This document shows, in pieces, positions 1 to 64,000 of a stretch of DNA of 64,000 nucleotides. Source of the stretch: Haliotis cracherodii (lineage: Eukaryota); NCBI RefSeq assembly GCF_022045235.1, contig NW_027266264.1, positions 46,624,001 through 46,688,000 of the forward strand, in the 5' to 3' direction. The translations under genes were made by a program, and so were the position numbers. Under the pieces are notes generated by a model. That model was not told the origin of the DNA. It worked only from the letters and a program-made list of their open reading frames with translations, and did no database searches. How positions within the stretch are numbered: the first letter of the stretch is position 1; every line of letters begins with the position of its first letter.

Positions 1-10
1 GGTTATACAT
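1..10 (-). CDS. First codons (MYN...) of a further FoxAB-like copy continuing off the left edge of the window
   Basis: 1-~166 is identical to 7839-~8004 (offset 7838), i.e. the ATG, 5' leader and core promoter of the 6772-7848 gene. Intactness cannot be judged from this window. Confidence 0.7.
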
Positions 11-270: not shown

Positions 271-1140
271 TTCACTTGTGAGTTGCATTACAGTATATGA
301 AATATGTGCTATTATTCGCACGAAAGACGTTACATCCACCAGCGTGTTCATAACGATGACGGAAAGTAATAAAAAAACACTAGATTACAATAAGTGTGTT
401 AATGGTTAAATAGTTGTAGCATGGATTCCTTTCGAAAGGCTTATAGACTTTGGAGATGTCGAAAGAAAAGGCACCTCACATTTAGTATTTATAGAAGTTG
501 GTATACAATATGAACGATCTTGTGACTTCTACTCGACTGTAGAAGTGTCACCATGTTCAGTATATGTATATTGTGGACGAGGAACCGGTTGGTTCAAGTC
601 TAAGTAAAGTTTATGTTCTGTTCTGTTCAGTACATAGCTGACACCAACAATCGTATTGGGTAGACATATTGCTGTTTTCTCAAGGATTGTCACCGAGCTT
701 ATTGATATCCCAACAAACCAAAACCACACTATCAAGGGCTGTCAGTATCGGTCATCACAAATACAACAACAACCTGTCGGTGTTAAAAGCTCAAATGTAG
801 GTGGTTGTATTGGCATTGCTACTGTGTGCAATACTCGAAGATGGGGACGTGCCAAAAATTGCACCATAAGATGATTTTGTTTATGTTGACATTGATTATT
901 AAAAATATATTTGTCTAAGATACTATAAAACCACCACAATAATATACTATATACGTTTCATTATGGGTGCAGATAGAATATGGCTGATTTCGGCGTTAAA
1001 CAACAATGTAAACAATCAACTGTGTATAGTTCAGGCTGCAGACAGAGTATCTCACAGCATAAATATATTAGTGTAAAAGGGGTATATAAAATATACTACC
1101 GGTCACTAGCCATATAAAATATGTTTTCTTAGTTGGAGAA

Positions 1141-1960: not shown

Positions 1961-2117
1961 CATTGTAGTCAAAATGTGTGAGTGAGGTTGGTTTAACACG
2001 GCTTTGACACTACACATGCTGTCCATTTACATGGTGCTGTACTAAGTAAACAAATGCTAATAATTACAATCTCAAAATGAGCCATTAAATGACCAAAGTC
2101 ACCATAGGCTGTCTGAA

Positions 2118-2250
2118 AGATGTACACCACACCCTGTAGGATAACCCCTCACCCAAGGGCGTCAGGTGACATATCCGCGGACACCAGTGTCTTCCCCGGG
2201 TCTATGTCCTGTAGCTATAGAAGTAAGCACTAGGGTCAATATTGATTCAG
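2118..2250. promoter_or_regulatory. Paralog-conserved upstream element CNE1 (ends in TCAATATTGA palindrome)
   Basis: Related copies at ~9388-9517, 13438-13530, 44090-44180, 50060-50170 (degenerate) and 63348-63500. Confidence 0.5.
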
Positions 2251-2469
2251 ACCCGTACATGCTTACGAAATATGCAGATATTTCAGTTTATTCACGAAAT
2301 GCACATATCTACACATATCGACACATATGCACAATGTATAATTAACATATTCGAGGTTATAAAACCCAAATTAAACTATACGATTATAGTGTCAAAAGTA
2401 AAATTATATAAATTATAAATTCTCTTATCGATCGGGTACAATATTTTGCTTGATGCTTTGACAGATACA

Positions 2470-2831: not shown

Positions 2832-3196
2832 TTCTCATGGCGTAACTTGGAGTGATGTTGTTAAACCGCGTCTTTTGACCATACAAGAATCTTCCTGTTC
2901 TGATTTTTAGGAACAAACAATGTTGACTGGTAACGTTTCGTTTTCGTCAGTTTTCAAGGAAGGGTATATGGTGCTTTATGATCATTTCCCATCACAGTCA
3001 ACAACTGTTATGGCCTGATGAAATGGAAGGTTTGAAATGATTATTAATAAATAAAGGTTACAGGCCTACTGTCTCTCTGTCAAAAACACTGTATTGATCA
3101 GGATGTCCATATTGTGATCCAGATGGAGGCTGAGTTTTTTTTATTGAAATAAAATTAAGAACCCCCCCCCCTCCCCCAGAAATGACACAATCAAAT

Positions 3197-3342
3197 GACA
3201 CAAGTAATCGTAATGGGGAGACTTAATGGTGCGTTAAATAAGTTGTCTCTACACTCACAGACATCACAACAAATCAACACCATGCTCTGTCACATTGTCA
3301 GCACATGTAACAGCAGTAACAACATCCAATCTGTGTCAGTAG
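3197..3342. promoter_or_regulatory. Paralog-conserved upstream element CNE2 (GTAATCGT..GGGGAGAC..TTGTCTCTACAC..CATCACAAC..TCTGTGTCAG)
   Basis: Copies at ~10939-11081, 38537-38680, 44770-44902, 50592-50707, 51037-51183 and 63783-63910, all in the same orientation. Confidence 0.55.
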
Positions 3343-3789
3343 CAGTGGATGTGCGGAATATTATTCTGGGATAGTAAAGGTATACAATCTTAGAGGATAG
3401 TAGTTTTAATGCTGAACAAAAATGACTGACTAAGCTGGCAAAATAGAAATGAATTCCCTGACTGAATGCCATCATATTTTTCTTTAAACAAGAATACGTG
3501 TTCTTTTCTTTAATTAAGAAGACATGTACATGGTTATGCTACATATGAATACACTTGATATGTTACTAAATACTGAAAGTTTATTAGAACACAGAAAGCT
3601 AGCACAATTTGTAAAATTAAAAGTAGTATGTAGTATATACTGTATGTATAAAATGTAGTGTTACACACGCCTTTGTGTCACTACTTTACATCTGTCCATA
3701 AGTATGTTGTCATTAGAGTGTGGTTACAATGCTAGAGTGGTCAGAAGCAGGGTGGGGCGAATTTGATGACTACATGAGTGACCGAGTCA

Positions 3790-4070
3790 CTCAACCCTGG
3801 ATTGGAGCTTGTGATGCGAAGCTAGGCCGCTACCAATTTTGGTTTGATCAAATAGAGATTATCATTTGTCGGTTTCCTGTTTGCTTAGCTTCCTAATTTA
3901 CCTGAAAGGAACAACCCGTTTTGTTTAGCTACCAAAGACTAAACTTATCCGATCTTCAGAATTGACTTACCTCCGGATCAGAGGATGAAGGTAAGTTAGA
4001 TGGCGACAGAGGCGGACGATACTGCGCGCGACAGACATTCAAATTCAATTTCACAGAAGGCCGACTTAAT
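3790..4070. promoter_or_regulatory. Paralog-conserved upstream element CNE3 (TTT(G/T)ATCAAATA.AGATTA ... GTAAGT.AGATGGCGAC ... CACAGAAG)
   Basis: Copies at ~4590-4885, 11450-11745, 12675-12745 (partial), 45305-45620 and 51705-52020. Confidence 0.55.
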
Positions 4071-4240
4071 AACGATATATATTTATACCCATCCACCCAA
4101 GGGTTGCCCAAAAGATTACCTTGTCCAAACTTAGCATTGGTTCACCGAATATTCTAATCAATTATCCTTTATTTTCATTAGAAGTACATCATTGATGTAT
4201 GAAATATGTAGAACTGTGTGGTTGTTGTTTTTTGTTTTAA

Positions 4241-4885
4241 GATAACAACACATAAATAAATCGTACTTATTATCAAATAGAAGAAAATGCCTTTCTCACA
4301 TCACTTTTCTTTAAAAAATAATGGCATATTCTTACATTCTTAAAGTGTTTTTTTTTTATTTCTTCACGTAACACGTGCTTAGTATACATACTATTACACA
4401 CGTCAGTACTTTACTTATTTCCATGTACACGCCTTAAGCATGTTGTCATTAGAGTGACAAAACAAGTGGTTACAATGTTAACATGCTGTTTTGATGTCAG
4501 TAGCAGGATGAGACTGTCTGTTTCTCCACCTCAAGATTTTACCTGACGATGTCGGCATATTTGATGTTTCTATAAGGTAACAAGATTCAATCAACCCTGG
4601 ATTAGGGCTTGTGGGGTTAAGCAATTGTGGTTTGATCAAATACAGATTACCATTTGTCGGTTTCCTGTTTGCTTAGCTTCCTAATTTACCGGTAATGAAC
4701 AACCAGCTTTATTAAGCAAGCAAATGACGAACATTATCCGATCTTGTGAATTGGCTTACCAGAAACCGCTTATCTCCCTTTACCATTCTCCCGTCAGTGG
4801 ATGAATGTAAGTAAGATGGCGACAGAGTGGACTTTACTGCACGCGACAGACATTCAAATCCAATTTCACAGAAGGCCGACTTAAT
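4241..4885. repeat. Near-identical duplicate of 11104-11745 (includes CNE3)
   Basis: About 640 bp of very high identity by direct comparison. Confidence 0.9.
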
Positions 4886-6771
4886 ACCTTTTAATATGCA
4901 TATTATATATATACATATATATATATATTTATAAGGGGTATGTAACAAAACGAAAACAACCACATAGTTCTACATGTCTACCTTCATGTCATCTTGTCAT
5001 GTGCTTTATTTCATACATAAATGATGTAGTTCTAATGAAATTATAGGGTAATTGATTGGAACATCTTAACGTTGTTTTGTGTGTTGTTTTACATCATTCA
5101 CAACGCACGTGTGTGAATCTCATCTTGTCAAAGCCTTGGTTCATACCAGATTGATTTGATGAGCATGTGGATGCTTTTGAAGATATATTTTCACGATCAT
5201 TAGGTCTAGAGCCAATTTACACTTAATACTACATGGAATCAAGGTTATCATTTTACATTTATGATCACTATTCCAATATCCCCCACGACCTTCCCCAGGC
5301 GCCTGATAATTCTGATATTAATGTTCATAAGCGTACTCACCTTCTCTCAAACTTATTATTTTATACACAAATTGTTTATTCTGCACAGTCACACATTGCA
5401 TCGTAATCAAGGCAAATCTGGGATTCGAACCCACATCACACTATGTCACTCCATTGACACAGGCCCACATCCACGAGCTGAGACATTGATTATGTTTGTT
5501 GCTTCTGCTGGTGTAAACCAATGTGCATGTTTGTGTATAATCGGTTACATGCCTTTGGGTAAAAGTTTAAGAATAATAGCAATAATGTTCTTACTGGAAG
5601 AATGGCTAATGTTCACAGGTGTCCACAATGCTAGAAATTCCGCCTGTGTCCGGCTTCTGATGGGTTGGATTTAAGATGGGTACGAGGTGACAAACGTGTT
5701 TTCAACTTATGTTACTTAATTACCTTAATCCAATTTAAACAAATGCAAAAATACACGATGAGTCTAAACTATGATCAATTCATAAAAGGGGTTAATTACC
5801 GATAGTTCTTTTTCTGTCCTGGCATGTTCACAAGCATGTATAAGTGGATCGGTTTAATATTTAGGAAATAAGCATTTTGTGTTTTAGCGTAGAGTTGGTT
5901 AACTGTAGATATAACCATGCAAAATTGAATTCTGAATAAAAGGAGATCACATTGAAAAGGCAAAATGGTTCGAAACAAGACATGACATTGTTTCCTTTGA
6001 ATTCTTATTTGTATTCACCAAAAGCTTGCAGGTGTCACTATAGGGTGTATGTAATAGATATAGTACTGACACAACTTCTCTGTCTATATCAGCGCGCAAG
6101 CAGATACTCGAGTTCTACAAACTATAACGTGACTGCAGATCGTACAAACTCCACCATCACATTCGGAGCAGATTGCACGATTTCATGTAAACTGTCCGGT
6201 TCATGCAGTTACGTTTGTTGTTGAAGGCCTGAATTTTGAATGTATACGTTTCACGAAGCTGGAGAGTTTCACGCCTTTATAAACTGTTTACTTTCGAATA
6301 CTTTATCAGTGTAAAATGTACTCCATCATCACAAAACAGTGACTATCCATTGGACAAAAGTATTTGCCTGTGCTATAAGGGATACTTGTAGCTGAATCGG
6401 CTTGTACACCGCAAGGCAGCAGGTCTCGGGGTGCACACGACAGAGGTGTATAAAATACAAATGTACAAATAAGTCTTGTTAATTTCATTTATTATATTTC
6501 TATATTTAGTTCACGTTGTACATTATGTAACCATAAGTATTTTACCTGAACGCAACATATTGTTACTGTAAGGCAATATATACCGTATGTTTTCAGTTAA
6601 ATACACACAATACATATTTGACAATACAGATATGATATTGTCAGTAGTATTGCCATCATATTCAAAGCCACGAATTGTTTGTCATGCACCAGATGTTGAA
6701 TCAACTTATATTCCTATATAGCACTTGTGTATATCAGTCTTCATTATCGCACCAGCAGGGGTGTATCCACA

Positions 6772-7848
6772 CTAAGCATGGTATGATCTCGTGGACCTTG
6801 TGCCCCAACTCTGACTGATGTCGTTTGAAGAATCAGTCATTGACTGTTGTATGTTTGGATACAGGTAGTTGCAGGAAGGGTCAGGTATGCTTAAACTGGG
6901 TGAGGGAACTTGTGGCGCGTATGTTCCGGCCAGTGGAGAGCTTCCCGGGGGAGAGCTGGAGAGAGGGGAACCGGTCAGAGAACTGATGATACTTCTGGTG
7001 TTGTAGTAGCCGGCTGTAGGAGGAGAGTAGCCTGTAGGAGATCCCATGGTCCAGATACAGGGGTCCGGTTTGCCTATTGTGCTGTAGGGGTGTGTCTGGG
7101 TCAGTCCCGGGGGTAAGGAGCCGTGACTCAGGGGGTTGAAGCTTGTGTAAGGAGATGGACCCCCATACAATCCCAATAACTGTCCGTAAGGACTGGCAGG
7201 ATGGAATGAAGGATCTTCTCGACGTTGCTTTTGTGCGGACTTGAAACGCTTAGAACGACGAAGGAAACTGCCGTTACCAAACATGTCCCCACAAGATGGA
7301 TGCAGAGCCCACAGGTTACCCTTGCCTGGTTTCCCCGGGGGTCGGGGCACCTTGACGAAACAGTCATTGAGGGAGAGGTTGTGTCTGATGGAGTTTTGCC
7401 ATCTCCGTTGGTTGTCTTCGTAGTATGGGAATCTCTTGACGATGTAGTTGTAGATGTCTTTGAGAGTCATCATGCCTGTTGTAGAACTCTCGACGGCCAT
7501 GGTGATGAGAGCCACATAGGAATAGGGAGGCTTCTTGTTGGAAAATCGTCTGTCTTGTTGTGAGAGGGTGGATGTTCCCGAGAAACCGTCCCCTTCTCCG
7601 TTCGAGGATACCGATGAGGTAGGAGACGGAAGAATGTTGTCATAATTTGGAGATCCTTGTTGCGTGTGACCTGATCCATGTGTGATCAGGGATCTGACGT
7701 CTTCTCCCTCAGTAGCTCCAGATGTCTGAGACACGACTGGGACGGAGTGTTGTGAAGATATGGAGTGATCAGATGGAAGAGGTGTCATCTGCTGTCCCAT
7801 GAAGGGAGATGTACCTGGGACATACTGGAACATGAATGGGTTATACAT
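6772..7848 (-). CDS. foxAB: Forkhead transcription factor, FoxAB-like (copy A), intronless, 358 aa
   Basis: Full forkhead domain (~7240-7536) [24 protein letters not shown]...[58 protein letters not shown]. The GMMTL, KGNxWALHP and [16 protein letters not shown] residues fit FoxAB better than FoxA or FoxB as I recall those families. Minus-strand AATAAA at ~6488-6493. Confidence 0.85.
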
Positions 7849-7931
7849 GATTCCTGGCTCAATGTGCAGCAGGTGAGAAATGTATTACCTCAGTAGGCAG
7901 AGGAATGTTTATCCCCCTCGTCACGGCGAGG

Positions 7932-9058: not shown

Positions 9059-9582
9059 TGGGACAATAACCAGAGATTGTTTTTCAGATTGTTTAATGCA
9101 AACGCTAACACTTCACTCAGTGACAGCTTTAATAAATATAAAACATATTCATCAAATATAGCAATAAATATATATTTGCAATGAAACAACTCTTCATATT
9201 GCCTCCAAACTGTATTTCACAAGTAATTTCCGGAACCTTAATTCCCGATTTGCAAATACACAATAAATAAGCGTTCATGTTTAAATGACACTTCACAATA
9301 AAACCTGAAGAAGCAAGTTAGTTGCAGTAGTAATGAAACGTTAATTGCATGCTCAGCTAATGAAATGTCACTATAGGTTGCTTTAATGATGTACATCACA
9401 CCCTGTATCGAAATCCTCACCCAGGGGCGTCGGGTAAAATACCGTCGGATTCTAATGTCCCCCTGGGCCTATCGCTTGTGTTCTTTTTGGAGTAAATACC
9501 AGGGTCAATATTGAATCATGTATACCAACTTCATGACATGCTTTTCAGCATGGTGGAAATGCGTTTTGTATCATTTAAGTTA

Positions 9583-9990
9583 CGTAATACGAACATCTTG
9601 TAGACGTAATACGAATATCTTATAGACGTAATACGTACATCTTATTGGCGTAATACGAACAGCCTAAAGCCGTCATACGAACATCTTATAGGCGTGATAC
9701 GAACATATTATAGGCGTACTACGAACATCTTATTGGCGTAATACGAACATCTTGTAGACGTAATACAAATATATGATAAGCGTAATACGATCATCTTATA
9801 GGCGTGATACAAACATCTTATAGGCGTAATACGAACATCTTATAGGCGTAATACGAACATCTTAAAGCAGTAATACGAACATCTTATAGGCGTAATACGA
9901 ACATCTTATAGACGTAATACGAACATCTTATGGACGTAATACGAACATTTTATAGACGTAATACGAACATTTTATAGACAGAATACGATC
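9583..9990. repeat. 22-bp minisatellite (GTAATACGAACATCTTATAGGC)n, about 18 copies
   Basis: Direct reading. Confidence 0.95.
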
Positions 9991-10519
9991 GTCTTGAATC
10001 CACATCCACGACCTACAAATTAATGCACCAGTTGTTCGTAGGTGTATGATTATGATCAGTTTACCCATCTGTGGTGTTCCATAACAATGCATCCACAACG
10101 GATGCCAAGATACAGCATATATTCAACATATCTATTTTTTCTCAGCATATGACAATATTTTCGCACCTGCAGTGCAAATGGTTGACACCAGATTATCAAC
10201 CATAGTAAATATTACAACATCGATATTGTCTTAATTTTGTCTCTGACTAGTATCATAATCACTTTTGACAACATAGAGGTGGTTCAACATGATTATCATC
10301 AACAAATAGGTTGTTCATGGTCCTCAACACTACATATATGAATGCATCTATTACAAGCTTGTATTATGTAGTTAAATATTGAATTGCTTTCGTCGTATCC
10401 AAATACTTATGAATATTCAGTGAAATATATTGTTTGTCACTGACATGATTATTTAGGAATTGCTCCATGTCCTTCCACAGATTTGTAAGAAATTTGCATT
10501 CCTAAAAGGTGAGTGGTAG

Positions 10520-10683: not shown

Positions 10684-11723
10684 CATTATAATGTAATGCG
10701 TACTTTAATTTGTCAGACAGAGCCAATAACAAGTCCACTTTATTGTTCTTGTGGCCACTGACATGGGCAAACCATGCATTCATAGCCAGACTGGCAATCC
10801 TATTGATTTTTTAGTGAAACACTTGACCCAGCATATAATACACAATAACATAAATTGTCCTTTTGGACAAATTTCTGACATCCTGACAAAATCACCACCA
10901 AAAACAGGGAAACATTTAAGCATATCTCAGGATAAGCTGACACAAGTAATCGTAACGGTGAGACTTAATGGTGCGTTAAATGAGTTGTCTCTACACTCAC
11001 AGACATCACAACAAATCAACACCATGCTCTGTCACATTGTCAGCACATGTAACAGCAGTAACAACATCCAATCTGTGTCAGAAGCTAACGATATCGTCCT
11101 GCGATAACAACAGATAAAAATAATCGTACTTATTATCAAATAGAAGAAAATGCCTTTCTCACATTACTTTCCTTTAAAAAATAATGGCATATTCTTACAT
11201 TCTTAAAGTGTTTTTTTTTATTTCTTCACGTAACACGTGCTTAGTATACATACTATTACACACGCCAGTTCTTTACTTATTTCCATGTACACGCCTTAAG
11301 CATGTTGTCATTAGAGTGACAAAACAAGTGGTTACAATGTTAACATGCTGTTTTGATGTCAGTAGCAGGATGGGACTGTCTGTTTCTCCACCTCAAGATT
11401 TTACCTGACGATGTCGGCGTAATTGATGTTTCTATAAGGTAACAAGATTCAATCAACCCTGGATTAGGGCTTGTGGGGTTAAGCAATTGTGGTTTGATCA
11501 AATACAGATTACCATTTGTCGGCTTCGTATTTGCTTAGTCTCCTAATTTACAAGTAATGAACAACCAGCTTTATTAAGCAAGCAAATGACGAACATTATC
11601 CGATCTTGTGAATTGGCTTACCAGAAACCGCTTATCTCCCTTTACCATCCTCCCGTCAGAGGATGAATGTAAGTAAGATGGCGACAGAGCGGACTTTACT
11701 GCACGCGACAGACATTCAAATCC

Positions 11724-11848
11724 AATTTCACAGAAGGCCGACTTATAAGTCTCAATGCAATTATTTAATACATACCTTTTAATATATGTAGTTAAGGTAT
11801 GTATTAAATAATTGCATTGAGACTTATAAGTCGGTCTTCTGTGAAATT
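11724..11848. repeat. 55-bp inverted repeat with a 15-nt spacer
   Basis: 11724-11778 is the reverse complement of 11794-11848 with one mismatch. Confidence 0.9.
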
Positions 11849-14800
11849 ATATTATATATATTTTAATGCTGAGTGCCCCAGAGAAGATATTTGGTGAAAC
11901 CCACGAGCAAACGAGCAAACCTAGAAACGTATTTTGGTGATTTAAATCCCCTAACCACAGGTTTCTGCCCCCCTCCCATGCACCCCCGAGGCGTTCGGTA
12001 GCCTCGGTAAGAGTAATACAATGACATACATGAATATAATCAGTTTATTTCTATACGAAATTGTAATCAGAGTAACAGAAAATATATTTTAATTTATTTA
12101 TCATTCGTGACAGACAAAGTTGTATTTTACTCTTAGATTTACTCTAACTATAAAAAATGTCCCACTAAGCATCCGTCCATGGCTGTTCATTTCTATGGTT
12201 ACGGAACAAATCAGTTTCACGCTTTCTCGTGTTCTGAGTCAATTACTACGACAAAAAACAACACACTGAGGGTGGTTGTTATTTATACAGACAGCATATC
12301 AGCTAAATATGTGTGAAATGATCTGTAATGACCCGTTAATGTACACACAGTGCAATAAAAAATGAATGACGTTAGCAGGTAAATCCTTTCACAGTTGTAC
12401 AATTGTCAGTTTACATTCCAGAATGTATCTAACACAGCCTTCACGCATGGCCTATTTATGTCGGACACTCTGAAGTTTGTGTCCAGATAATAGAATTTAA
12501 TTAAGTTGGAATAGGATTCGGTGGTCCATAATTCAGGCAGGTTCATATTTGTTAATGAAGATTAATGTATTGCTTTACATGTTGTGTTTATTCCACCCTC
12601 CTAATGTACTTTGTAGAGAATATACAGCAGTTGCCGAGACTAACATGCTTAGTTGATTTTGTCCGGACTAACACGATCAGAGTAAGATGGCGACGACAAC
12701 GGACTTACATGCACGCAACTGGTGTCAAAATCCAATGTGACACAACACCGACTGTCCACTTCAAAGTTCTGCTCGTTTATACCCCAGACATGTACAGCGT
12801 GTTCAGTATGATGATTTCCATCGGTAAAATCGCAATCATAAACAGACAATTTTTTATACCTGTCATCTCAAATATTTTATCCCTCATTTCAATAATCTAT
12901 ACTTAGGCAGGTACATATGTAAGTATTGGTACATTCTCTTTACTGAGGAAGTAATCAATGTTCATGTCACTAAAAGTACAACAAAACAAACAATTTTAGA
13001 TTGCCCTCGAAGCGAGTGAACCGTTGTTTGAATCAATGGGTCAACATGGTTGGAAGGGTGTGACTCCCGAATGGGTATTTCATCCAGATGTCATACACGT
13101 CGCACGTAAGGGCCCTATCGATCCAGTTTTACATTCCGTTATCCCAAAGCATTACATATCTCAATGATCCAAACGTAGTTGAGCGTTGTAATGGAGCTAC
13201 AGTGGCAGAACCCTTTGACACACCACCTGCGTGGCAGGCGATAAGCGTCTACGCATGCATGCATTGTTGAACGTGAAAACTCTCTCGGTGACACTGACAA
13301 TTTAGCACATTAACGGCAATGATGACTATGACGAAATTACTTAATCGAGCTGAATGATCGCGCTCGTGCATCTTTAATCGCCATAATCCTGAACGTGTCT
13401 CACAGCCTCTATTGACAATATCATAATCCATGGGCACCGTACATCACCCCCGGTGTTTCTGCTCTCACCCCAAAGTGTGTCCACCATGTCCCGCTCGGGG
13501 GGAGAGGCTTAAACATCAATATTGATTCAGTCGCCCGACAGTTTGATAAGTGAGGAACGGTACTGTTGATGAGTTTGGGCAAATTACTACCACATATAGT
13601 TTTGTGCAATCTTAATGATGAAATAGGCTGTACATAGACATTGGACGGTATCTTGGTTTCTTTATTGAATTAGTAATACAATTTGACAAGGAATAACCAT
13701 TTGTCTCGCGATTGGTTACAATGATATTTTAAATTGCCTGTGTTCATTTATTCAGTAAACAGTTGACATTTAAAGCGACAGATCTGATAATTTTGGACTA
13801 TGGGATTTATGGGTAATTTAACGGGAAATACACGCATTGTCAATTTGTTCAAAGTGTGTTTTTATCTTTTGGTTTAGCGGGAAATGTGTTGTATATTTGG
13901 AGTCTATTCATGAAAAATGACAAGCATATATTTTAAGGACGCCCCAGCATCAGCCACAACAAGAGTGAGGCATTTCGTCCTTACAGACAGATCTTGCAAG
14001 GAAAGGTGACTCACTTTCCTGAAATGTTGTATAATCCTATAGAAACTATTCTACAGCAATTCACTTTACGGTAGTATGATTATCGGTGGTTTTATATCCC
14101 TTTTTTAAATGTTGACATAAATTGTATTATGTGTACCGTAGTCTTATAGCCTGGATATAACTTTTAACGGTGTGAATATAGCATTTATGGTTTGTCTTGT
14201 ATTATTTAAATGACATGATGCGCGACACATAGCTCACTCGCTCATTTCTCTATTTCTCCTTAAAGCTCGGGGAAAGGCTCAATGCTATTGTCGAACCCAT
14301 TCGGCAGAGTGTGTCACTATAGCCTTTTTGCTATTGTCGAACAAGTTCGACAGGCGAATAGCATGACACACCAAAATAAAACTCGCACTAACTATTTTCC
14401 AAGTAGGTTTTAGGTGTCATTTAGATTATGGACCTATATATTTGCTCACGGGGAGCATTTTGGCACTGTGTTGATGACTTGAATTATTGTTTTCCTGTTC
14501 TATTTTGTTCGCCTTTTCAAAGGAAGCACACGGAACTCACCATTATTCCTCTAAAAAGCGCCGAGCTTGTATTTTTTCGGAAGGTCCTTTGTCCCGACGT
14601 TTAACCGAGACAGGCGTTGTTTATTATCAATTTTAGTTCAATATTGTCTCTCGATGTCCCTTCGTATATATGTCATTTGAATCGGAGTTTACGGTAGTTT
14701 AAAAAGGCAGGATTCTTCAGGAAATTAACGTGAAACTTTGTATACACAACAATACTGTTGGAAATGTCGTTTGCTATACTGGATTGTTAAGTTTTCATTT

Positions 14801-37058: not shown

Positions 37059-37937
37059 TTATTGCTCAACTAACACATCTTCGCTACTTGCCAATGCTTG
37101 TAGTTGCATCTCTGTGGCCAAGTTTCGAATCTTTTCTGCAATTTTAGCATTGTTTTTCTCTCTCCACATGATTACTTTATAGCTGAAATACAACAAAGTT
37201 GCAACGTTTACAAAAAAGCAAGCAAAAGCCAAACAGCTGTCCAACACCTCCATTGCCTTTCCAAGGTCGTTGAGTGAGAGCCAGGTGTCTTTGTGGCTGG
37301 GTACTAAAGAACTGTTCATTATCAAACTGGGAATGATCACCAGTGGGTTTTTCCCACTGGACACCGAGTCCACAACAGTGGAAAAAATCTTCTGTAGGTC
37401 CTTGATACTGCTGATGAGTATCCATGCGGGCAGAATAGTCAGAAACACATCCTCCACAGCTCGCCATACCTTGCTACCACAACACAGCAGTAGGAAGGAA
37501 CTCCCTGTACGTAGTGGTTCCTCGGGCTCCAGAATCAAGTCAGTGAAGGCACACAAGGTCGGTTTAGATAATGTTACAAGGCTGGTGTCTTGAGAAACTA
37601 TGTATATGTCAGAATGCTTGCCTCTTCCCAGAAACACGTCTCTTGTGTCCCTGATGGATCTGTTGTTGTAGAAATCCCGCACCAGTTTGATAGAGAAGGT
37701 GACAAGTCCTGCTACCAGCGCCAGGCTAGCTCCTACCACGCTGATGTGAGAGGACACATTAAAGTCTTTGAAGGTCCATCCTGACCCAAACAGAACAATA
37801 CCACTACCAGTTATGCCGAATATGGAGAAAATGATTCGGAGGATGTTGAGGGTCCGGTGTCTTTTCTCCAGTTTGTCGGCAATCTTGTTTAACCTGTTCT
37901 TGGATTCTTCCATCTCAGAGGCCCCTGAAATAAACAT
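37059..37937 (-). CDS. Apolipoprotein-L-like membrane protein (292-aa ORF; likely start M at 37913 after a splice acceptor at 37925)
   Basis: LNKIADKLEKRHR, then two Gly-rich hydrophobic helices, a C-terminal hydrophobic stretch and the amphipathic tail AKIAEKIRNLATEMQ. This is the ApoL-family layout, recognised by eye. Acceptor tttatttcag lies upstream of MEESKN. Confidence 0.6.
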   Translation of the reverse strand: MFISGASEMEESKNRLNKIADKLEKRHRTLNILRIIFSIFGITGSGIVLFGSGWTFKDFNVSSHISVVGASLALVAGLVTFSIKLVRDFYNNRSIRDTRDVFLGRGKHSDIYIVSQDTSLVTLSKPTLCAFTDLILEPEEPLRTGSSFLLLCCGSKVWRAVEDVFLTILPAWILISSIKDLQKIFSTVVDSVSSGKNPLVIIPSLIMNSSLVPSHKDTWLSLNDLGKAMEVLDSCLAFACFFVNVATLLYFSYKVIMWREKNNAKIAEKIRNLATEMQLQALASSEDVLVEQ

Positions 37938-38414: not shown

Positions 38415-39207
38415 TGTATTGATCAGGATGGCCATATTGTGATCGAGACTTTTTATTGAGGCAGATGGAGCCTGAGTTTTTTATTAACATAAAATTAAGC
38501 TGTTCCCTCAGCACCCCCCCCCCCCCCCCACCCCCCCAAGTAATCGTAATGGGGAGACTTAATGGTGCGTTAAATGAGTTGTCTCTAAACTCACAGACAT
38601 CACAACAAATCAACACCATGCTCTGTCACATTGTCTGCACATGTAACAGCAGTAACAACATCCAATCTGTGTCAGTAGCAGTGGATGTGCGGAATATTAT
38701 TCTGGGATAGTAAAGGTATACAATCTTAGAGGATAGTATTTTTAATGACTGAATGCCATTATGTTTTTCTTTAAACTGAACAAGAAACAAGAAGACGTGT
38801 CCATGAATATTCTACATATGAATATACATGATATGTTACTAAATACTGAAAGTTTGTTAGAAAATGAAAACTAGCACAATTTGTAAAAGAAATCCTCAAG
38901 ATGTTTAATTAAACGTATGAATGTGTTGTAGTTAAAAGTATAGGTGTCGCACGTCTGTCTCCTGCCTTGTGTCACATGTTATATCTTCACATGTACCTTC
39001 AATATGTCGTAGCTAAGACCTTGAAGCGAAATAAACGTGTTTTCGTTTGTTGTTACTGAAATCGTTACATAAAGTGTGTAACCGTGTGTTGAATGGACTT
39101 TTTTTGCTGCATGTACGACGTGCTTAGCATATGTAGTATTACACACACCTTGTGCTAATACATTACATCTGTCCATAAGTATGTTGTCATTACGGTGACA
39201 AAACAAG
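38415..39207. repeat. Duplicate of the FoxAB upstream block ~3090-3720 (includes CNE2)
   Basis: Collinear near-identity from tgtattgatcaggatg through CNE2 to catctgtccataagtatgttgtcatta; bounded on both sides by family-2 SINEs. Confidence 0.85.
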
Positions 39208-39494: not shown

Positions 39495-39768
39495 CGTCAT
39501 ACCAAAAGACGTTAAGAGATTGTACTTGTTGTTACCCTGTCTGGCGCTCGGCATTAAGGGGCTAAAACAAGGACTGGTCGGCTCGGAGTCAGTATATTGT
39601 GTCTGAGTGGGGTATTCCTGTTAAACTGTGGCAGGGTATCTCAGTGAGCTCGCACTATAAATCGACATCAGTCCGGACTAGTACATGCACGTCGCTATAT
39701 ACATGATATAAGCGCAATAATCTTGGACGCGACGTTAAACCCCATTTCACCTCACCTCACCTCACCTC
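39495..39768 (+). mobile_element. 5'-truncated SINE (family 1)
   Basis: Core and (CACCT)n tail without the tRNA head. Confidence 0.85.
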
Positions 39769-40637: not shown

Positions 40638-41805
40638 TGTTTCATGTATCGAGTCTAGTGTTATTTGAGCCTGGTGTGGTATCAAGTCACGCGACCTGAC
40701 GGGTTGTCTTGACATGGTAGAGCACTTGACGCGATGATTAAATCGTATTCTGTAAATGTGGTATCAGTGCCATACTATCAGCATTGTCTTTCAACATGTA
40801 CTCATATTAGAACCACACACGGTGGTACAAGGGAATATGTTACATGTTATTGATGTAGTACATAAAACACATGGTATGACGGTAGACATGTAGAACTATT
40901 TCGTGCTTACAGTTTTCAGCATCAAATGTATGAATTAGATATTTATTTCAGTACCTTTCATTTCTTTGAACATTAAGTTATAAATATGTACATACAGATG
41001 TCTGAATTACTTACTAGTTCAATGCCAACTCCGTCATTTGTTACGTGAAGTTGTCTGCACTTATAGACAGCACATCGCTTCATTAGGTACATTTGTTCTG
41101 GCTTAATCGATCATCTCAGTAAAAACAACCTCAATTGCATTCACATTTAAAGCGAAGATATAAAGGTACATTGTGTAAATTGTCAGGTGTTGATTGAGTG
41201 AAGTGCACGAAAGCTGACTCGTGAGAGTGTGGGTGGGTTGACTGTGTGTGTGTGGGTGGGAGATCTCCTATGTTATTTTCACAGTAATTATCATTTCCCC
41301 GAGTTTCCGATTCTCGGGCTTAATATTATAGATATAATTACTTGTAGTATTAATGCATCTTATGTAAGGGCCTGCAGGTTCACTACATACCTGACCGTCT
41401 GCTGCATCGCTGGTTGTAATCTGCAGACGAGGTGACATCTACAGGGATTTCCGCCTTACATTAACAGCCTGCATTAATATTTTACATTAACCCGACATTG
41501 TTCTGAAAATAGTCTTTCTCAGAAACCGGTCTATCAGCCTTCAGGGCCACCATGGGTTGTGAAGGGGATCAGATAGACACGGCCCGGATCAGACGACGTT
41601 GTTTTCAGGGTTTAATCGTTCTATGCCTTTGGGACAATTGCTATTTCTGTATTCTACACCTTATATGCATGTAAGAGTGCCATAAATAGGTCCGGGTGAC
41701 TTTCCTGTAACTTGATGAAAAAGGTAATATGTATTAATCACGTCCGGAAGCATGCCTATTCACTAGAGTCACGTGATCCATATATACAACCAGTCCGCAA
41801 TTCAC

Positions 41806-43776: not shown

Positions 43777-45921
43777 CTTGTCTGCAGCGCCCCAAATGTC
43801 GACGCCTCTTTGTTCGTCGGGTTACAACACTTCCCGAGTGTATAGTTTTGGCGATGTTGTCCTTGCATGCCCATGCTTTGGTGAATAAATGAGCCTTTGT
43901 GAACTGAAAAATGTTTTCCATGTGACGTGGAGTTCTATGTATACCTCACAACAGGTTATTTTTATCTTTACTGCCATTCTTTACTTAAACGTTATAATTA
44001 GTAGTCCAACATACATGTGGCTAACACAGCTGATTAGAAATTGAACGCCTAGATAATATCTTTCGTTTTATTCTGTTCATAGCTAAATCAACACCCGCGG
44101 GATTCGCTTGACGTGCTTTAGGGTCCCTTGTCCACATGGGGTCATGTTCAAGTACTGATACCATAATCAATATTGACGTCAATTTAGTTACGGAACTAAT
44201 GGAGGGTGCACATTTGGCTGTTAAAATTATATCACTAAACTGTGTTTCTCAAGCAAAATCGAGAAATGTTTTATGTAGGGCGTCAAAGCAGAATCTGCCC
44301 AGGGAACTCAATTGATGGAAAAGATGTGCTTGCCTCTGCAGATGTAATGACATGTTAATAACCTGAATATGCATTTTCTCGTGTTGTCTCTTAGGTCATT
44401 TTAGCAGGACAACTCACCGTCTATCGTCAATAATTTAATATACACGTGTATGTATTATTGTATGTAAATGATTACAGTGTGCTGTGTGACACAGTAATAA
44501 ACTACATTCTTATGTTATTTCCATTTGCAAATATTTCTGCTTATCTAAAATAGATGATTGAACAATGAGCAACTGTGCTAGTGCAAACTGACACCATGGA
44601 GTTGGTCATTGCTTGTTCATGGTAACTAATTTTGATTTCACGTGTAGGTTATATTAAGATAGCGGGTAAACAAAATGTGTCGAATGACACCAATTAGGGA
44701 GATTTCATAGAATGTTTTGAAGCAGGGAACCACGCGCAACATAAAGTGCGACTACACAGGGGTAATTGTGACACGAGTAATCGTAGAGGGGAGACGTATG
44801 ACGCGGGTAATGGGTTGTCTTTACACTTATTTACATCACAACATTTCAACACAACACTTTGTCTGAATCGATCATCCCAGAAACAACATCTATGTCAGCA
44901 GCTTCACTTGGAGTGACACTTAATATCAAAATGGGGATATTGATGACACTTTCACTGACTGCTATACATTGTATGTGTGAACGAACAAAAAAAACTTGTC
45001 TGGTCTTTTCCTTAGATGCTCTATTACATTTATTATGATGAGTCGATATTTCTCAACTTCGAATTAACTATCTACAGTCTTCATCTGTCCCATTAGTTCG
45101 TCCTGCTCTGATGACAATGGCACAGAACACATCTTTACAAGATACATGTATGTTTGAACAGTCTCTCACATTCTTCGAGTTAAAACATGATGCAGTATAT
45201 TAAAGACTGGTCATTACCTAACATCACCTTGTTACCTTAATACCAGATCTGTGTGACTCTCTTTCATGTGACCACCCAAGAAAGGGGGTTCAAATCAGAA
45301 CAGGATTAGGATTAAAACTGACGACGACATATAGAATTCCAATTGTTTTATCAAATACAGATTATGACTGTTGTTTGTGGTAAGTACAATATTGATCCAA
45401 TTACAGTTTGCTTTGTCTTTCTAAATAAGATTTAGTTGTAACAATGCGCTGTATTCCCTTCACAGAGTGGAATACCGACACAGGCCTATCTACCTATACG
45501 GTCGTTAAGGTCTAGCATCGCGGTAAGTAAGATGGCGACAAGGACGTTCCTTCTTGGATGACGAAATTTAAATCGCTTTAACGAAATTCGAATTAAATTA
45601 CAGAAACAATCTTCCGACTTCAAAATGACCAACTAGAAGACTGATGGCCACTCACAGGTTGATGCTGGGTGTCTTTCAAGAAGAAAGCTGTACATATGTT
45701 CTTCTTGGGGTGAAACTCAGACCCTAGTGACAGCCTTGTGACCAGTAGCCGTAAACCTTTTGTTATGTTCTTATTTCCAGTGAAAACTTGAAACGGACGA
45801 AAGGCGATACACTTATTCACTCCACTAAAGCTTTAAGAAAACAACCATACACGTGGTCTGGGGATTGAAGAATTATGCGTTGGTGATAAAAAAAAAATAT
45901 ATATAGTATCACATAACCAGG

Positions 45922-49808: not shown

Positions 49809-52800
49809 CCTACTTACAGGCCAATCAGTTGTTCCACATTGATAGTAACCTCTAGCCTGCATAATGAACATGTATGATACTGGGAAAAATGTCTACCTAC
49901 TTCTCTTCACCATAGTTAAATTAATTTTCCACAAAACCATAAGCCGAATAAAATATATATGGCGATGAATGTGTTTCTACATTAGATGAATAACACAAAG
50001 GAATTTTGGCCACAAGGCAACACTTGTAATTACATAAGTACACATTTTGATAAAGGCTTTCCTACCCCTCTTTTCACTGAGGCAGCTCAACCTATATCCA
50101 TAGGGTTCCAGTAGCCCTCGGGGATCAAGTACATGTCAGGTTCTAAAGCTTAAGTCAACACTGATGTCATAACCCTGTAGAACAAATTACATTTTACCAA
50201 ATATATGTCTAGATGATAAAAGTAAAGGTTAAGGCCAAATGAACAAGACGTATTCTACGTATCAAAATATGTTAGATTGTTTGTCTTGATTCACGACACG
50301 TATCTCGAGCTGGGTATCATAATTGCAATGTTCTTGTAAATTAGATGCTGTAAATGGATACACTACAGCCCACTATGAGAGGAGGGATACATGCAATACA
50401 TTTATGATCAAAGGATCGTCATATCTTTGTGTCGAACTATAATGAGTTATGGTGACCTGTATGTAGATTTTGAAACCAGCGACACCTGGTGATATGCTTA
50501 GTGGGATAGGTTGGGCATATGTATGTGTTGTAAGTGAATGGTCCAAAGTGACATAACCACCACATGTCGGATACGTCACGGGCCATGGAAGCGGTAATCG
50601 TATCGGGGAGACGTAGCGATTCGTTAAAAGGTTGTCTCTACACTTATTGACATCACAACAATTCAGTATCGATCATCACTGAAATAACACCCAGTCTGTG
50701 TCAGCAGTTGAGTGGTATCAAGATCCTGTACAAGTACACCTCCTACATACCCCTTTGTCTGAATAATGTACGAGAATGAATGATTAAAAGCAAATTAACA
50801 GGCCAATATATTGATATAGGTGTTGCTCAAGTTTTCATTTGTTACAAGGTATTTTCCATTTGTTGTTGTCAGTGGAATGATGCTAATAATTTAAATTATC
50901 GCTATAGAATCTATTCGTCTTCTAATATTCAAGCTATGACTTTGTATGGACGAAGGGGATATTTTAGGCTAAACATGGACATTGCAAAAGTACTCAAATG
51001 CTCAGAGAATAGTGATGTGGCATGTTGGTGAAGGATGACGCAAGTAATCGTATCGGGGAGCCTTAATGACTCAGTTAATGTGTTGTCTCTACACTTATTG
51101 ACGTCACAATAAACACACAACATCACACTTCACGGGTTGTCGGCATCGATCATTACAGAGACAACTCATCATCTGTGTCAGCGGTTCACTTAATTAAATT
51201 TAGATCCCTTCATTGAACAAATGATGTTGTACAAACTGTGAAATTGTCCCTACGTTATAGTGTATACAGTGTGTCGGAATATTTCTACTCTGTAAATAAT
51301 GAGCTAGATTAACACTTCTTTATTTAGAGGTCTATATTATTCAAAACATTTGTATGGTCATATTAATGTTGTACACCCAGGGGGAAGGGATAGCATTACA
51401 GGTAGTAATGCAACATCATTGCAGTTTTAGTTGAACAACAGATATTTCCTCATATATCGATTGCTTCTTTTATAGCACATGTGTGTATTATTGCACACCT
51501 GAAAGTGTTACAGAGATTGGCTTCTCGGAAAGTGGAATACCAGTTGATGAAACCATCTGGTAAAGGTGACAAACTACATGTGATTGTCCCCCAATGCTGT
51601 TCATTACATGGGGTTTTGCAATTATGCTAGAGGTGTTCGTGAACATGTTAGAAAAACACCACATGCTTTGATGTAGCCGCCCAGGTAACAGGATTTAAAG
51701 GAAACTGGATTAAGATTCGAAGGCCCAGCCACATATAGAAAATCTATTGTTTTATCAAATACCGATTATGACTGTTGTTCATAGCAAGTACAATATTGAT
51801 GCAGTTATTGTTTTCTTACGCTTCCTAATTCACCGTCAGTAGCACGGCCGCCCTTTATCAACTGGCTATTGACTACCTTATTTCCAAAATGGATTACTGT
51901 AAAACTGCTTTTCTCCCTTTCTATCACCCCGATACTGAAATCAGAGTAAGTACGGTGGCGACAGCGGCAGGGGACAATGCAGAGGCCAGACGCCAGAATC
52001 CAATATCACAGAAGACCGAAATATAAATCTTGTTTTATTTCTTATGTGTGACATCAACATTATTTACGGCCTCTTTAAGGATGTTCAAAAAATTGTACAA
52101 GCTTTAACAATATTAACCCAAATTTTAATAATGATCACTCCCAGAATAGAATCCGACAACGGAAATGTCGGACAAGTCCATTTTACGAACAGGTGGATTA
52201 AGTTTGTTTTTCCCCGAATATTCTCACAATCCTTACGTCGATTGTCTTCACATTTTCTCCTCATACCAATTGTCATATCTCTCCCGCTTTAGTATGCGAT
52301 CGTCCGGCCACTGCGTTTGTCTCGCAGCCCAGCTACATCTATGGGGAACAACTTGCTGGACATTTCCCTCTAAAAAATAACGTCGTCCAATATATGACGT
52401 CATCAAATTGCGAGCACATATTCAAATCTCCAGAAATGAAATAATGATCGAACAATGTTTTATCGTGAAAAATACCACTCTTCGTTCTTCATTGCCCTTT
52501 GCGATTAATCGCGTAGCTATCATATATATCCAAGAAAAATGTTTTTTGAAGTTGAATATACCATGATTAGGAATGTTTAATTCATGTTACACTAATCACT
52601 GCGGAACAGTGTACGTCGTTTGTTGGTGAGGGAGAAACAAACCAGAAGAACCCTACAGTACAGCAGGGTTAATGATAAAGCAGGCATCAACTCAGCATTG
52701 AGCGTTATCATATTTCGATAACCGAAATATAAATTGAAAAACAAAAAGGCAAACTATCATTGAGCGTAATTTGGTTTCCAATTCCAATTGTGTCCTTCAA

Positions 52801-60015: not shown

Positions 60016-61122
60016 TCACTTTGACATACCATATGAATACATAGGCTGTGAAGCTCCTGTGAATGACTGACACAACTGAGGATAGGAATAATTATATAAA
60101 TTTTGGATAGCACTCGAGCTCGGTGATGACACTTGTGGCATATATGTCCCAGCTAGAGGCGAGCTTCCCGACTGGGCAGACAGCATATGTGGTATGTGAG
60201 GTCCTGGTGGAGAGCTGGAGAGAGGGGAGCCGGTCAGGGAGCTGTTAATGCTACTGGCGTTGTAGTAGCCGGCTGTAGGAGAGTAGACGCTAGGAGTTCC
60301 CAAAGTCCAGGTACTTGGGTCAGACGTGCCTGCTGTGTTGGGTGTGTGTGTCTGGGTCAGTCTCTGGGGTAAGGGGCTAAGATTCAGGTTGAAACCTTGG
60401 TAGGGGGACGGGCCCCCATAAAGACCAAACTGTCCGTATGATGTGAACCGCTGAATCAGTGCGTCGTCTTGTCGCTGTTTGTGTCCTGACTTGAAACGTT
60501 TAGAACGACGAAGGAAACTGCCGTTACCGAACATGTCCCCACAAGAAGGATGCAGGGCCCACAGGTTACCCTTGCCTGGTTTCCCCGGGGGTCGGGGCAC
60601 CTTGACGAAACAGTCATTGAGGGAGAGGTTGTGTCTGATGGAGTTTTGCCATCTCTGTCGGTTGTCTTCGTAGTAAGGGAATCTCTTGACGATGTAGTTG
60701 TAGATGTCGTTGAGAGTCATCATGCCTGTTGTGGAACTCTCGACGGCCATGGTGATGAGGGCTACGTAGGAATAGGGAGGTTTCTTGTTGGAAAACTGCC
60801 TGCTTTGTTTTGAGAGAGTTGATGTTCCCGAGACAGTGTCAATGAGTAGTTCGTCATTGCTGTCCTTATCTGTACACGGTGACGATGATGGTGAAGGCAG
60901 AGGGACGTTATCGGGCAATTCTGCCTGTTGTCGATCTGTTTCTCCGAGGAACATGTCATCTATTCTGTTCGGCGTTCCTGGGGGCGCAGTTGTCTCCCTT
61001 GTGAGTGCCACTCTTGAAAATGTTTGAGGCAACATGTACGACGGCAACACTGGTGTCTCACCCTGCATCACAGCATCCCCAGTCACGTTGCCATACGGAG
61101 ATACACTTGTATGATTCAACAT
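60016..61122 (-). CDS. foxAB: Forkhead transcription factor, FoxAB-like (copy D), intronless, 368 aa
   Basis: Same forkhead domain (NRQRWQ variant), unique N-terminus, shared [23 protein letters not shown] block. Confidence 0.85.
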
Positions 61123-63069: not shown

Positions 63070-64000
63070 TGCACAAATAGAGACAAGTCACTCTTAAAAG
63101 GCGTACTTGATATTAAGATCACAAATACACATGAATAACATCAGGTTTGGTGTACAGCATATATGACGTGCGGCCAGAACTGTGATATACCATGTGCCAT
63201 ATGTTATTACTCGTTCATGACACAGCGTACATCCGGGTAACTACATGGGCATGACTGTGGGTGTCATTGAAGGAACCATTGCAACAAAGCATGTAACACT
63301 TTCGTAATGAGATCCCTGCTCCTCCACTGATTGGGATATGACTGGAAGATGTACATCACACCCTAATCAAAACCCTTACCCACTGGCTACGGCGTACCCC
63401 CAGGACCCTCAACCCCCTGGGGATGATTGACCAATATGTCACTCACGGATCAGCTTTGTTAAACATGTCAGTTTTAACTACTAGAATCAATATTAACTAT
63501 CCCACACTGACTACTGAAAGGTGCACAATAAAGTCGAAAATTGGTGTTCGATATTTGCTAGCAATTCAAAAGGATGGCAGTGCCAACAGGAACTATACCT
63601 AAAAAAACACAGACTGGAGTATACCACCATTAACGGTAAGACAAGAGCAATCAATTAAGTCATTATCCTTATATATTTGCATGGAAAGTATATGCACGTG
63701 GCCGACTATGGAATTGAAATTGGATGTACTCTTAACACGTATACTTTTATTTCACTTAAAAATGTGCGAATGTGGGTATATATGACACGAGCAATTGTTA
63801 CTGGTTTACCTTTTTGGCTTGATAAACGAGCTATTGGTATCACAACAAATCAGCACCCAACTGATGTTGGTATCGATGATCATAGAAGCAACATTCAATC
63901 TGTGTCAGTTAAGCTGAAGATTGTTCCTGTTGTGATCTTTAGAGATGGCGTGTTCTACACTAACAAATCAAAATAGATAGTATGCAAGCGAATTTCAGTC

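What the first reader, a model, noticed from the sequence alone, without database searches (positions are those of the whole stretch)
3197..3342. CNE2: ~140-bp non-coding element retained 1-3 kb upstream of every FoxAB unit
Seen: seven same-orientation copies (3197, 10939, 38537, 44770, 50592, 51037, 63783). Conserved blocks (GTAATCGT, GGGGAGAC, GTTAA, TTGTCTCTACACT, CATCACAAC, TCTGTGTCAG) are separated by variable spacers, and the 63783 copy is the most diverged. Copy C has two. It lies between CNE1 and CNE3 in every unit where all three are visible, although the surrounding DNA is unrelated and full of TEs. Inference: an enhancer (or small RNA) under selection since the oldest duplications. 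With CNE1 and CNE3 it defines a repeated gene-plus-regulatory-cassette unit.
Basis: partly seen in the sequence, partly recalled or inferred. Interest (0 to 1): 0.7.

Follow-up and report, generated by a model that had tools for sequence, protein, structure and literature searches.

The report
Repeated regulatory module, abalone FoxAB array
A ~146-base non-coding sequence is repeated 13 times, always facing the same way, inside an abalone array of ten forkhead (likely FoxAB) genes and was found nowhere else in the genome; it is likely a gene-control element copied along with the genes and at times overwritten from copy to copy, but its activity is untested.

Summary
The element is real. All seven stated copies exist, plus an eighth at 639-790; 13 lie in a ~100-kb tandem array of 10 intact FoxAB-like genes and 2 pseudogenes. 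All face one way, and genome-wide searches found none outside. The paralogs predate the split of several abalone species, and flanks between old units are unalignable while the element keeps 55-79% identity. The copy beside a pseudogene has 10 private changes versus 1 in each sister copy, as lost selection would give.

Corrections: it is upstream of 7 of 10 intact genes, not all; its order relative to CNE1 varies; the copy at 38537 has no Fox gene 5' of it within 30 kb. Substitutions are uniform along it, so 'conserved blocks' are not supported; only deletions cluster. Two units 30% apart in CNE1 differ by 3% in CNE2, so gene conversion likely acts on it, as on the forkhead box. It has no conserved RNA fold. 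Its ends are a 7-bp inverted repeat, leaving a transposon origin open.

Verdict: likely a duplicated cis-regulatory module (0.6), a new member of a known kind. The apparently undescribed FoxAB array is the more notable feature.

The parts
3196..3343 (+). CNE2 copy (the finding; 'far' copy of the gene whose ATG is at 10); ends TGACACA...TGTGTCA
639..790 (+).
10938..11085 (+). CNE2 copy 3.1 kb upstream of the gene at 6772-7848; 4 of 148 letters differ from the 3196 copy
38537..38679 (+). CNE2 copy in a gene-less duplicate of the 3081-3715 region; first bases replaced by a C run; 3.75 kb 3' of the gene at 42429-43502
41032..41137 (+). weak, partial CNE2 remnant (17.9 bits)
44769..44902 (+). CNE2 copy 1.27 kb upstream of the gene at 42429-43502
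50586..50708 (+). CNE2 copy 1.03 kb upstream of the gene at 48461-49552; 5' end decayed, 27-base deletion
51036..51185 (+). CNE2 copy 1.48 kb upstream of the gene at 48461-49552
63783..63912 (+). diverged CNE2 copy 2.66 kb upstream of the gene at 60016-61122
1..10 (-). start of a FoxAB-like gene that runs off the left edge (99% identical to 6772-7848)
6772..7848 (-). intronless FoxAB-like ORF, 358 aa
42429..43502 (-). intronless FoxAB-like ORF, 357 aa
48461..49552 (-). intronless FoxAB-like ORF, 363 aa
54178..54622 (-). FoxAB-like pseudogene fragment; no CNE2 found upstream
60016..61122 (-). intronless FoxAB-like ORF, 368 aa
7849..8015 (-). conserved core-promoter island with a TATA-like box about 90 bases upstream of the ATG, shared by paralogs (so CNE2 is likely not the promoter)
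2088..2257 (+). CNE1 copy (others at 9359-9524, 63319-63506; weak 44066-44186)
3800..4071 (+). CNE3 copy (others at 4600-4886, 11462-11748, 12555-12758, 45320-45598, 51724-52026)

Best explanation
CNE2 is a cluster-confined, same-orientation repeat that is likely a transcription-factor-binding cis-regulatory module (enhancer or silencer) of the abalone FoxAB-like paralogs, likely copied with each gene unit, likely kept by purifying selection while its flanks turned over, and likely homogenised at times by gene conversion. Shown: 13 copies, one orientation, none found outside the array, unalignable flanks between old units, an old paralog radiation, faster decay beside a pseudogene. Inferred: the founder of the derived FoxAB clade carried two copies (near, ~0.5 kb; far, 1-3 kb) in a promoter-CNE2-CNE1-CNE2-CNE3 cassette; units then lost or re-duplicated modules. 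Inferred, weakly: it gives the paralogs a shared embryonic input through many short sites spread over its whole length (TGACA x4, a recalled TALE/Meis-type core; ATCGAT, a recalled Cut/Onecut-type core; CAACA x3), which would explain uniform rather than blocky constraint. The bound factors and the sign of regulation are untested.
For: Confinement: 9, 6 and 2 DNA matches, all in the array; three patterns gave 20 array hits and 6 outside hits against 3 control hits, the outside ones being a satellite or <=8.5 bits. CNE1 and CNE3 are likewise confined, i.e. a whole cassette was duplicated. Island: element z>4 in 28 of 28 pairs of old lineages, flanks in 1 of 28 (left) and 0 of 28 (right). Age: N-termini group by ortholog across species (57-69% identity to H. 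rubra and H. asinina orthologs, 22-41% between old paralogs) and their 4-fold sites differ at roughly 40-90%, so neutral DNA between old units should be saturated, yet CNE2 is 55-79% identical. Relaxation: the copy by the pseudogene left of the window has 10 private substitutions vs 1, 1, 1 in sister copies, 7 derived, 0 ancestral, 3 unclear, plus 26 gap columns. Indels and a repeat abut the young copies but do not enter them. A contig of another species (organism D) has 3 differences in 189 letters over the element and 13 plus 14 gap letters in the next 230 (Fisher p 0.025). One old pair shares a collinear flank (z 4.4, best of 36 pairs), as segmental copying predicts.
Against: No functional data. 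Rate along the element is uniform, with 18/20 power at alpha 2 and 20/20 at alpha <=1, whereas CNE1 (p 0.002), CNE3 (p 0.0008) and the promoter (p 0.009 with 7 rows, 0.07 with 5) do show uneven rates; uniform decay on a star-like tree is what a neutral repeat gives. The TGACA-bearing ends are no better kept than the interior (21/112 vs 175/941), and 4 or more copies of some 5-mer arise in 505 of 3000 shuffles, so the motif reading is post hoc. Conversion can raise identity without selection and could also explain the pseudogene contrast if that copy alone stopped converting. The organism-D contig shares the deletions of the 38537 unit, so it may not be the ortholog of 3196. Three intact genes have no copy and one near-perfect copy has no gene upstream-adjacent.
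Confidence: 0.6

Rival explanations
1. A functionless homology island: copied passively with the units and kept recognisable only by repeated gene conversion among tandem copies.
For: The units at 3196 and 10938 differ at 4/148 letters in CNE2 but 50/164 in CNE1 and 44/259 in CNE3 (Fisher p 9e-12 and 4e-6), with identity ending at the element's edges. Conversion is active in the array: forkhead boxes group by species while N-termini group by ortholog; two genes share a 97% identical N-terminus but 56% identical C-terminus. Rates are uniform.
Against: Neutral DNA escapes conversion once indels accumulate (own knowledge), and the flanks did escape; all 8 old lineages keep nearly the same two edges; old copies at 55-79% identity are likely too diverged to convert each other, yet persist; no copy bears an insertion over 3 bases in a region rich in repeats.
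Confidence: 0.15
2. A fossil short DNA transposon (MITE) or solo LTR with TG...CA ends that inserted or hopped locally in the array and now decays without function.
For: 7-bp inverted ends TGACACA/TGTGTCA at the homology edges, seen in 0.3% of random 148-base windows; star-like tree and uniform decay; position varies relative to CNE1; absent from the most ancestral-like gene; unrelated flanks.
Against: No copy found outside the array; patterns that catch 4-5 of 8 old lineages caught no dispersed copy, which leaves room for only a handful; all 8 lineages share one orientation (p 0.008 by arithmetic); no consistent target-site duplication (only a 3-letter match in 3 of 8); CNE1 and CNE3 show the same confinement and orientation without such ends; faster decay beside the pseudogene.
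Confidence: 0.12
3. A structural DNA element (boundary, looping anchor or recombination-prone site) that organises the array or seeds its duplications and conversions rather than binding patterning factors.
For: One orientation, repeated spacing through the array, conversion ending at its edges, a gene-less copy kept at 98%, inverted ends and a weak internal direct repeat (p 0.017).
Against: No CTCF-like consensus seen by eye (recalled motif, not scanned); breakpoints of the recent 7.9-kb duplication fall near CNE3, not in CNE2.
Confidence: 0.08
4. A small structured RNA gene, or a non-coding first exon, repeated in the array.
For: Length ~146; the ends can pair in a 7-bp stem; one copy folds better than shuffles (z -3.1).
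Against: Consensus energies only -2.5 and -3.0 kcal/mol with an unfavourable covariation term; 1 of 16 and 3 of 17 pairs have any two-sided change; 13 of 14 folds have z above -2; no Rfam match on the element; no splice donor shared by the copies (alignments); the genes have their own TATA-like promoter island.
Confidence: 0.05

Closest known systems
SPS+A modules of the fly Enhancer of split complex (PMC3261227, passages read)
   Same: A tandem array of transcription-factor paralogs, many with their own copy of one upstream module 0.3-5 kb from the ATG, built on an inverted pair of sites, with variant and gene-less copies.
   Different: SPS+A is defined by two short fixed sites with set spacing and known factors; CNE2 is alignable over its whole 146 bases, uniformly, with no factor shown.
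Duplicated conserved non-coding elements (dCNEs) of vertebrates (PMC2781166, passages read)
   Same: Non-coding elements retained near paralogous developmental regulators after duplication.
   Different: dCNEs come from whole-genome duplications, lie on different chromosomes in few copies and are kept across ~500 My; CNE2 is tandem, 13-copy, tested only within abalones and subject to likely conversion.
Conserved sequence element (CSE) of clustered protocadherin promoters (PMC3333863, abstract read)
   Same: One element repeated at the members of a tandem array, same orientation.
   Different: CSE is a short promoter element at all 52 genes and binds CTCF; CNE2 is 0.5-3 kb from a separate promoter, misses 3 of 10 genes and shows no CTCF-like motif by eye.
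MITEs / solo LTRs exapted as enhancers (own knowledge)
   Same: Short, non-coding, sharp edges with inverted TG...CA ends.
   Different: No dispersed family, no consistent target-site duplication, single orientation.
foxAB duplicates of Owenia fusiformis and foxQ2 expansions in Spiralia (PMC9539403, passages read)
   Same: Lineage-specific multiplication of early-acting Fox genes.
   Different: Two foxAB genes there, ten plus two pseudogenes here; no shared upstream element appeared in the passages read.

Membership tests
Paralog-shared cis-regulatory module (dCNE / SPS-like) | Non-coding and confined to the neighbourhood of paralogous regulatory genes | tested here: met
   13 of 13 clear copies in the array; no outside copy; indels of 1, 2, 5, 7, 8 and 25 bases break any frame
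Paralog-shared cis-regulatory module (dCNE / SPS-like) | Diverges more slowly than neutral DNA between paralog units | tested here: met
   55-79% identity vs unalignable flanks and near-saturated N-terminal 4-fold sites; conversion confounds the young copies
Paralog-shared cis-regulatory module (dCNE / SPS-like) | Constraint between orthologs of different species | tested here: inconclusive
   one contig, 3/189 vs 13/230, p 0.025, orthology unsure
Paralog-shared cis-regulatory module (dCNE / SPS-like) | Short binding-site blocks better kept than spacers | tested here: not met
   uniform substitution rate; only deletions cluster
Paralog-shared cis-regulatory module (dCNE / SPS-like) | Open chromatin, factor binding or reporter activity | not testable with these tools
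   no such data in the tools
MITE / solo LTR | Terminal inverted repeats at the edges | tested here: met
   7-bp TGACACA/TGTGTCA; 0.3% of random windows
MITE / solo LTR | Target-site duplication | tested here: not met
   no consistent duplication in 8 flank pairs; 3-letter match in 3
MITE / solo LTR | Dispersed copies in both orientations | tested here: not met
   very old copies could be missed
Structured non-coding RNA | Conserved fold with covariation, or Rfam family | tested here: not met
FoxAB class (the neighbouring genes) | Forkhead domain in a clade apart from FoxA and FoxB, shared with other spiralians and echinoderms | tested here: met
   clade 97/93 with mollusc, annelid, nemertean, brachiopod and echinoderm proteins, excluding the genome's L051 and L049 genes (FoxA- and FoxB-like by recalled signature); two Owenia members, as PMC9539403 reports for foxAB
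FoxAB class (the neighbouring genes) | Grouping with a sequence labelled FoxAB by its authors | not tested
   no labelled FoxAB protein was among the rows; databases name these proteins FoxB/D/E-like

The most novel reading that the evidence does not exclude
A short transposon-like element with TG...CA ends was captured as an enhancer by the founder of an abalone-specific FoxAB clade and is now co-homogenised by gene conversion with the forkhead box, so that ten paralogs keep one DNA-binding specificity and one regulatory input while their N-terminal effector regions diverge freely: concerted evolution of an enhancer and a DNA-binding domain in one array.
Probability: 0.2. Interest if true: 0.65.

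Novelty: new member of a known kind. Interest (0 to 1): 0.4.

Why it matters
Invertebrate enhancers are rarely visible from sequence alone; here 8 old and several young copies give a natural mutational series for one module, with a pseudogene-linked copy as a decay control and a gene-less copy as a test of long-range action. FoxAB is little studied: in annelids it comes on in D-quadrant cells and at organizer specification (PMC4407770, PMC9539403, passages read). A ten-gene array shared by several abalone species, with a homogenised forkhead box, did not appear in paper searches (open-access library only), and would make dosage versus subfunction of an early patterning gene testable in an animal whose embryos are reared in hatcheries.

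Tried and rejected
Rfam: one tRNA-like hit at 40290-40361 and two sub-threshold hits, none on the element. RNA folding and covariation: negative. Off-cluster pattern hits: L040/L041 are a 16-base satellite; L036 and L065-L067 score <=8.5 bits; rejected. Profile hits of 5-9 bits (8311, 12184, 66381 and others) are at or near the level of the reversed control (6.0 bits) and were not counted, although 8311 lies where a near copy would be. Sequencing runs: no RNA holder listed; three runs guessed to be RNA have contigs over the Fox body (6659-7918) and little or none over the element's bin (depth 1.9, 1.5, 0); contigs cannot show absence, strand or start, so this was not used as evidence. A whole-genome profile search and a base-level three-species comparison of the 44-52 kb copies were not obtained, so very old dispersed relatives and ortholog-level constraint remain open. 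Motif test: TGACA x4 is p 0.002 alone but not after allowing for any 5-mer. Target-site duplication: not consistent. Earlier scan notes: none by place or sequence. Paper searches returned 0 papers; one returned none on point by title; PMC3836708 passages did not bear on the case; the PMC9539403 supplement gave tree labels only. Rows left out: one of each twin pair and three of the four young copies from the rate test (8 lineages kept); two twin genes and four N-truncated database proteins from the trees, and one further short-N row from its N-terminal tree; three of twelve own-genome Fox loci without a clean domain from the tree.

Full report
1. Observation. All seven copies are at the stated places on the + strand, and nhmmer adds an eighth at 639-790. 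With 100 kb fetched on each side, an iterated profile finds 13 clear copies (58-143 bits) and one weak remnant at 41032-41137 (17.9 bits) against a best of 6.0 bits on the reversed sequence. All are on the + strand. They lie within a ~100-kb array of 10 intact, intronless forkhead genes and 2 pseudogene fragments, all on the - strand. I number these g1 to g13 from the left; g5 (ATG at 10), g6, g8, g9, p10 and g11 are in the window, and u7 is the gene-less unit at 38 kb.

2. A copy lies 465-3186 bases upstream of 7 of 10 intact genes and of pseudogene p3. None was found at g1, g12, g13 or p10. The 38537 copy sits in a duplicate of the 3081-3715 region, 600 bases upstream of an unrelated ORF with a sub-cutoff ApoL match and 3.75 kb 3' of g8. 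Module order varies: g4 and g5 run CNE2-CNE1-CNE2-CNE3; g6 and p3 run CNE1-CNE2-CNE3; g2 runs CNE2-CNE2-CNE1-CNE3; g9 runs CNE2-CNE2-CNE3. An ancestral unit with a near and a far copy fits most of these (inference).

3. Is it dispersed? Three DNA queries gave 9, 6 and 2 matches, all in the array. These searches miss diverged copies (one search missed 639 and 63783). Three patterns from different parts of the element gave 9 of 12, 7 of 7 and 4 of 7 hits in the array, with 2, 0 and 1 control hits. The six outside hits are a 16-base satellite or score at most 8.5 bits. Because each pattern catches 4-5 of the 8 old lineages, a dispersed family of similar age with more than a handful of members is unlikely (inference). 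CNE3 (7 matches) and CNE1 (4 matches) are confined in the same way.

4. The genes and their age. The nearest named proteins are from Haliotis rufescens, H. rubra and H. asinina, several per species, so the window is abalone and the array is shared across the genus. The forkhead domains form a clade (97/93) with genes of other molluscs, annelids, a nemertean, a brachiopod and echinoderms, apart from the genome's own FoxA- and FoxB-like genes (those two labels rest on recalled signatures). Owenia contributes two rows, as PMC9539403 reports for foxAB (passages read). g1 is the most ancestral-like; the rest form a derived clade (100/98), and CNE2 was found only there. N-termini group by ortholog across species (g2, g11 and g6 with H. 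rubra proteins; g6 and g8/g9 with H. asinina proteins), whereas forkhead boxes group by species (H. rubra pair 98, H. asinina trio 87). Four-fold sites between old paralogs differ at about 8-27% in the box, 20-43% in the C-terminus and roughly 40-90% in the N-terminus, where alignment is unsure. The radiation thus predates these species, and the box is likely under concerted evolution.

5. Evidence for constraint. Between 8 old lineages the element aligns in 28 of 28 pairs; 140-base flanks do so in 1 of 28 and 0 of 28. Identity is 55-79% on a star-like tree. Among the four young copies, the one beside pseudogene p3 has 10 private substitutions against 1 each; by outgroups 7 are derived, 0 ancestral and 3 unclear, and it also lacks 26 bases. 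Indels crowd the flanks of the other three but spare the element. A contig from another species has 3 differences in 189 letters over the element and the next 67 bases, and 13 plus 14 gap letters in the following 230 (p 0.025); it shares the deletions of u7, so its orthology is unsure. One old pair (g2 far, g9 far) shares a collinear left flank (z 4.4, best of 36 pairs).

6. Evidence against the simple picture. Substitutions are uniform: a gamma rate adds 0.26 log units (alpha 10.6), 30 of 143 columns are invariant against 24.5 expected (p 0.14), and autocorrelation is borderline (p 0.052). The test detects alpha 0.5 and 1 in 20 of 20 simulations, alpha 2 in 18 of 20 and alpha 5 in 7 of 20; CNE1, CNE3 and the promoter island do show uneven rates. 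Only deletions cluster. The g5 and g6 units differ at 4/148 letters in CNE2 but 50/164 in CNE1 and 44/259 in CNE3, so CNE2 was likely overwritten between them, edge to edge. The edges carry a 7-bp inverted repeat found in 0.3% of random windows, but these ends are no better kept than the interior (21/112 vs 175/941) and no consistent target-site duplication is seen.

7. Not an RNA, as far as tested. No Rfam family matches it. Consensus folds are weak on both strands and the covariation term is unfavourable. One of 14 single folds has z below -2. Each gene has its own TATA-like island about 90 bases from the ATG.

8. Mechanism. Most likely (0.6) CNE2 is a factor-binding module that came with the founder of the derived FoxAB clade, was copied by segmental duplication, is kept by selection spread over most of its length, and is at times converted between close copies. 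Copy number, orientation, confinement and the pseudogene contrast are shown; selection and conversion are inferred; enhancer activity is untested. The majority sequence has TGACA four times, CAACA three times and one ATCGAT, kept in 6 of 8 lineages. TGACA as a TALE core and ATCGAT as a Cut-class core are recalled, and the enrichment does not survive correction. Spiralian TALE genes specify blastomere fates in limpets (PMC8524836, abstract read) and annelid foxAB starts in D-quadrant cells at 28-33 cells (PMC4407770, passages read), so an early-embryo input is a lead only. Rivals: neutral conversion island 0.15, functionless transposon remnant 0.12, structural element 0.08, RNA 0.05.

9. Comparison and novelty. 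It looks like the repeated upstream modules of tandem paralog arrays: SPS+A in the E(spl) complex (PMC3261227, passages read), the protocadherin CSE (PMC3333863, abstract read) and, more distantly, vertebrate dCNEs (PMC2781166, passages read). It meets the confinement and slow-divergence tests of that kind, fails the block-conservation test and has no activity data. It fails two of three MITE tests. Searches of the open-access library showed no paper on an abalone FoxAB array or its upstream elements; subscription papers and genome-paper supplements were not seen. Earlier scan notes held nothing.

10. Verdict. A real, cluster-confined element, likely regulatory, a new member of a known kind; interest 0.4. 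The boldest reading not excluded, a captured transposon co-homogenised with the forkhead box, has probability 0.2 and would rate 0.65.

Noticed in passing
G000:C1:46596446-46697547 (window 1-64000 is its middle): Tandem array of 10 intact FoxAB-like genes plus 2 pseudogenes; paralogs shared with H. rubra, H. asinina and H. rufescens; forkhead boxes group by species while N-termini group by ortholog (concerted evolution of the DNA-binding domain).
   Followed up: yes
window 42429-43612 and 48461-49662: Two genes share a 97% identical N-terminus and 110 bases upstream of the ATG but only 56% in the C-terminus, where the second resembles the gene at 6772-7848 (71%): a likely conversion chimera.
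   Followed up: partly
window 37059-37937 (-): Intronless 292-aa ORF with a sub-cutoff Apolipoprotein L match (E 0.0014) inside the array, 600 bases from a near-perfect CNE2 copy; could have come under its control.
   Followed up: partly
window 3800-4071, 4600-4886, 11462-11748, 12555-12758, 45320-45598, 51724-52026: CNE3 has a well-kept AAGATGGCG core (recalled YY1-type motif) and is also upstream of g12, which lacks CNE2; runs guessed to be RNA have low-depth contigs at 4326-4888.
   Followed up: partly
G000:C1:46614323-46630072: Recent ~7.9-kb tandem duplication (99% identical) giving three nearly identical genes; copy number may vary among animals.
   Followed up: no
window 57529-58461 (+): Tc1/mariner-type transposase ORF (Pfam HTH_Tnp_Tc3_2).
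   Followed up: no
window 23980-28586; also 9583-9998, 17463-18351, 34636-35206, 58889-59572: Long minisatellite arrays; the ORFs read from the largest are artefacts of the repeat.
   Followed up: no
window 40285-40638, 22653-23009, 36511-36881, 39495-39763, 62610-63069: tRNA-headed repeat family in both orientations (Rfam tRNA hit at 40290-40361), likely a SINE.
   Followed up: no
window 11724-11848: 125-base near-perfect inverted repeat at the right end of a CNE3 copy.
   Followed up: no
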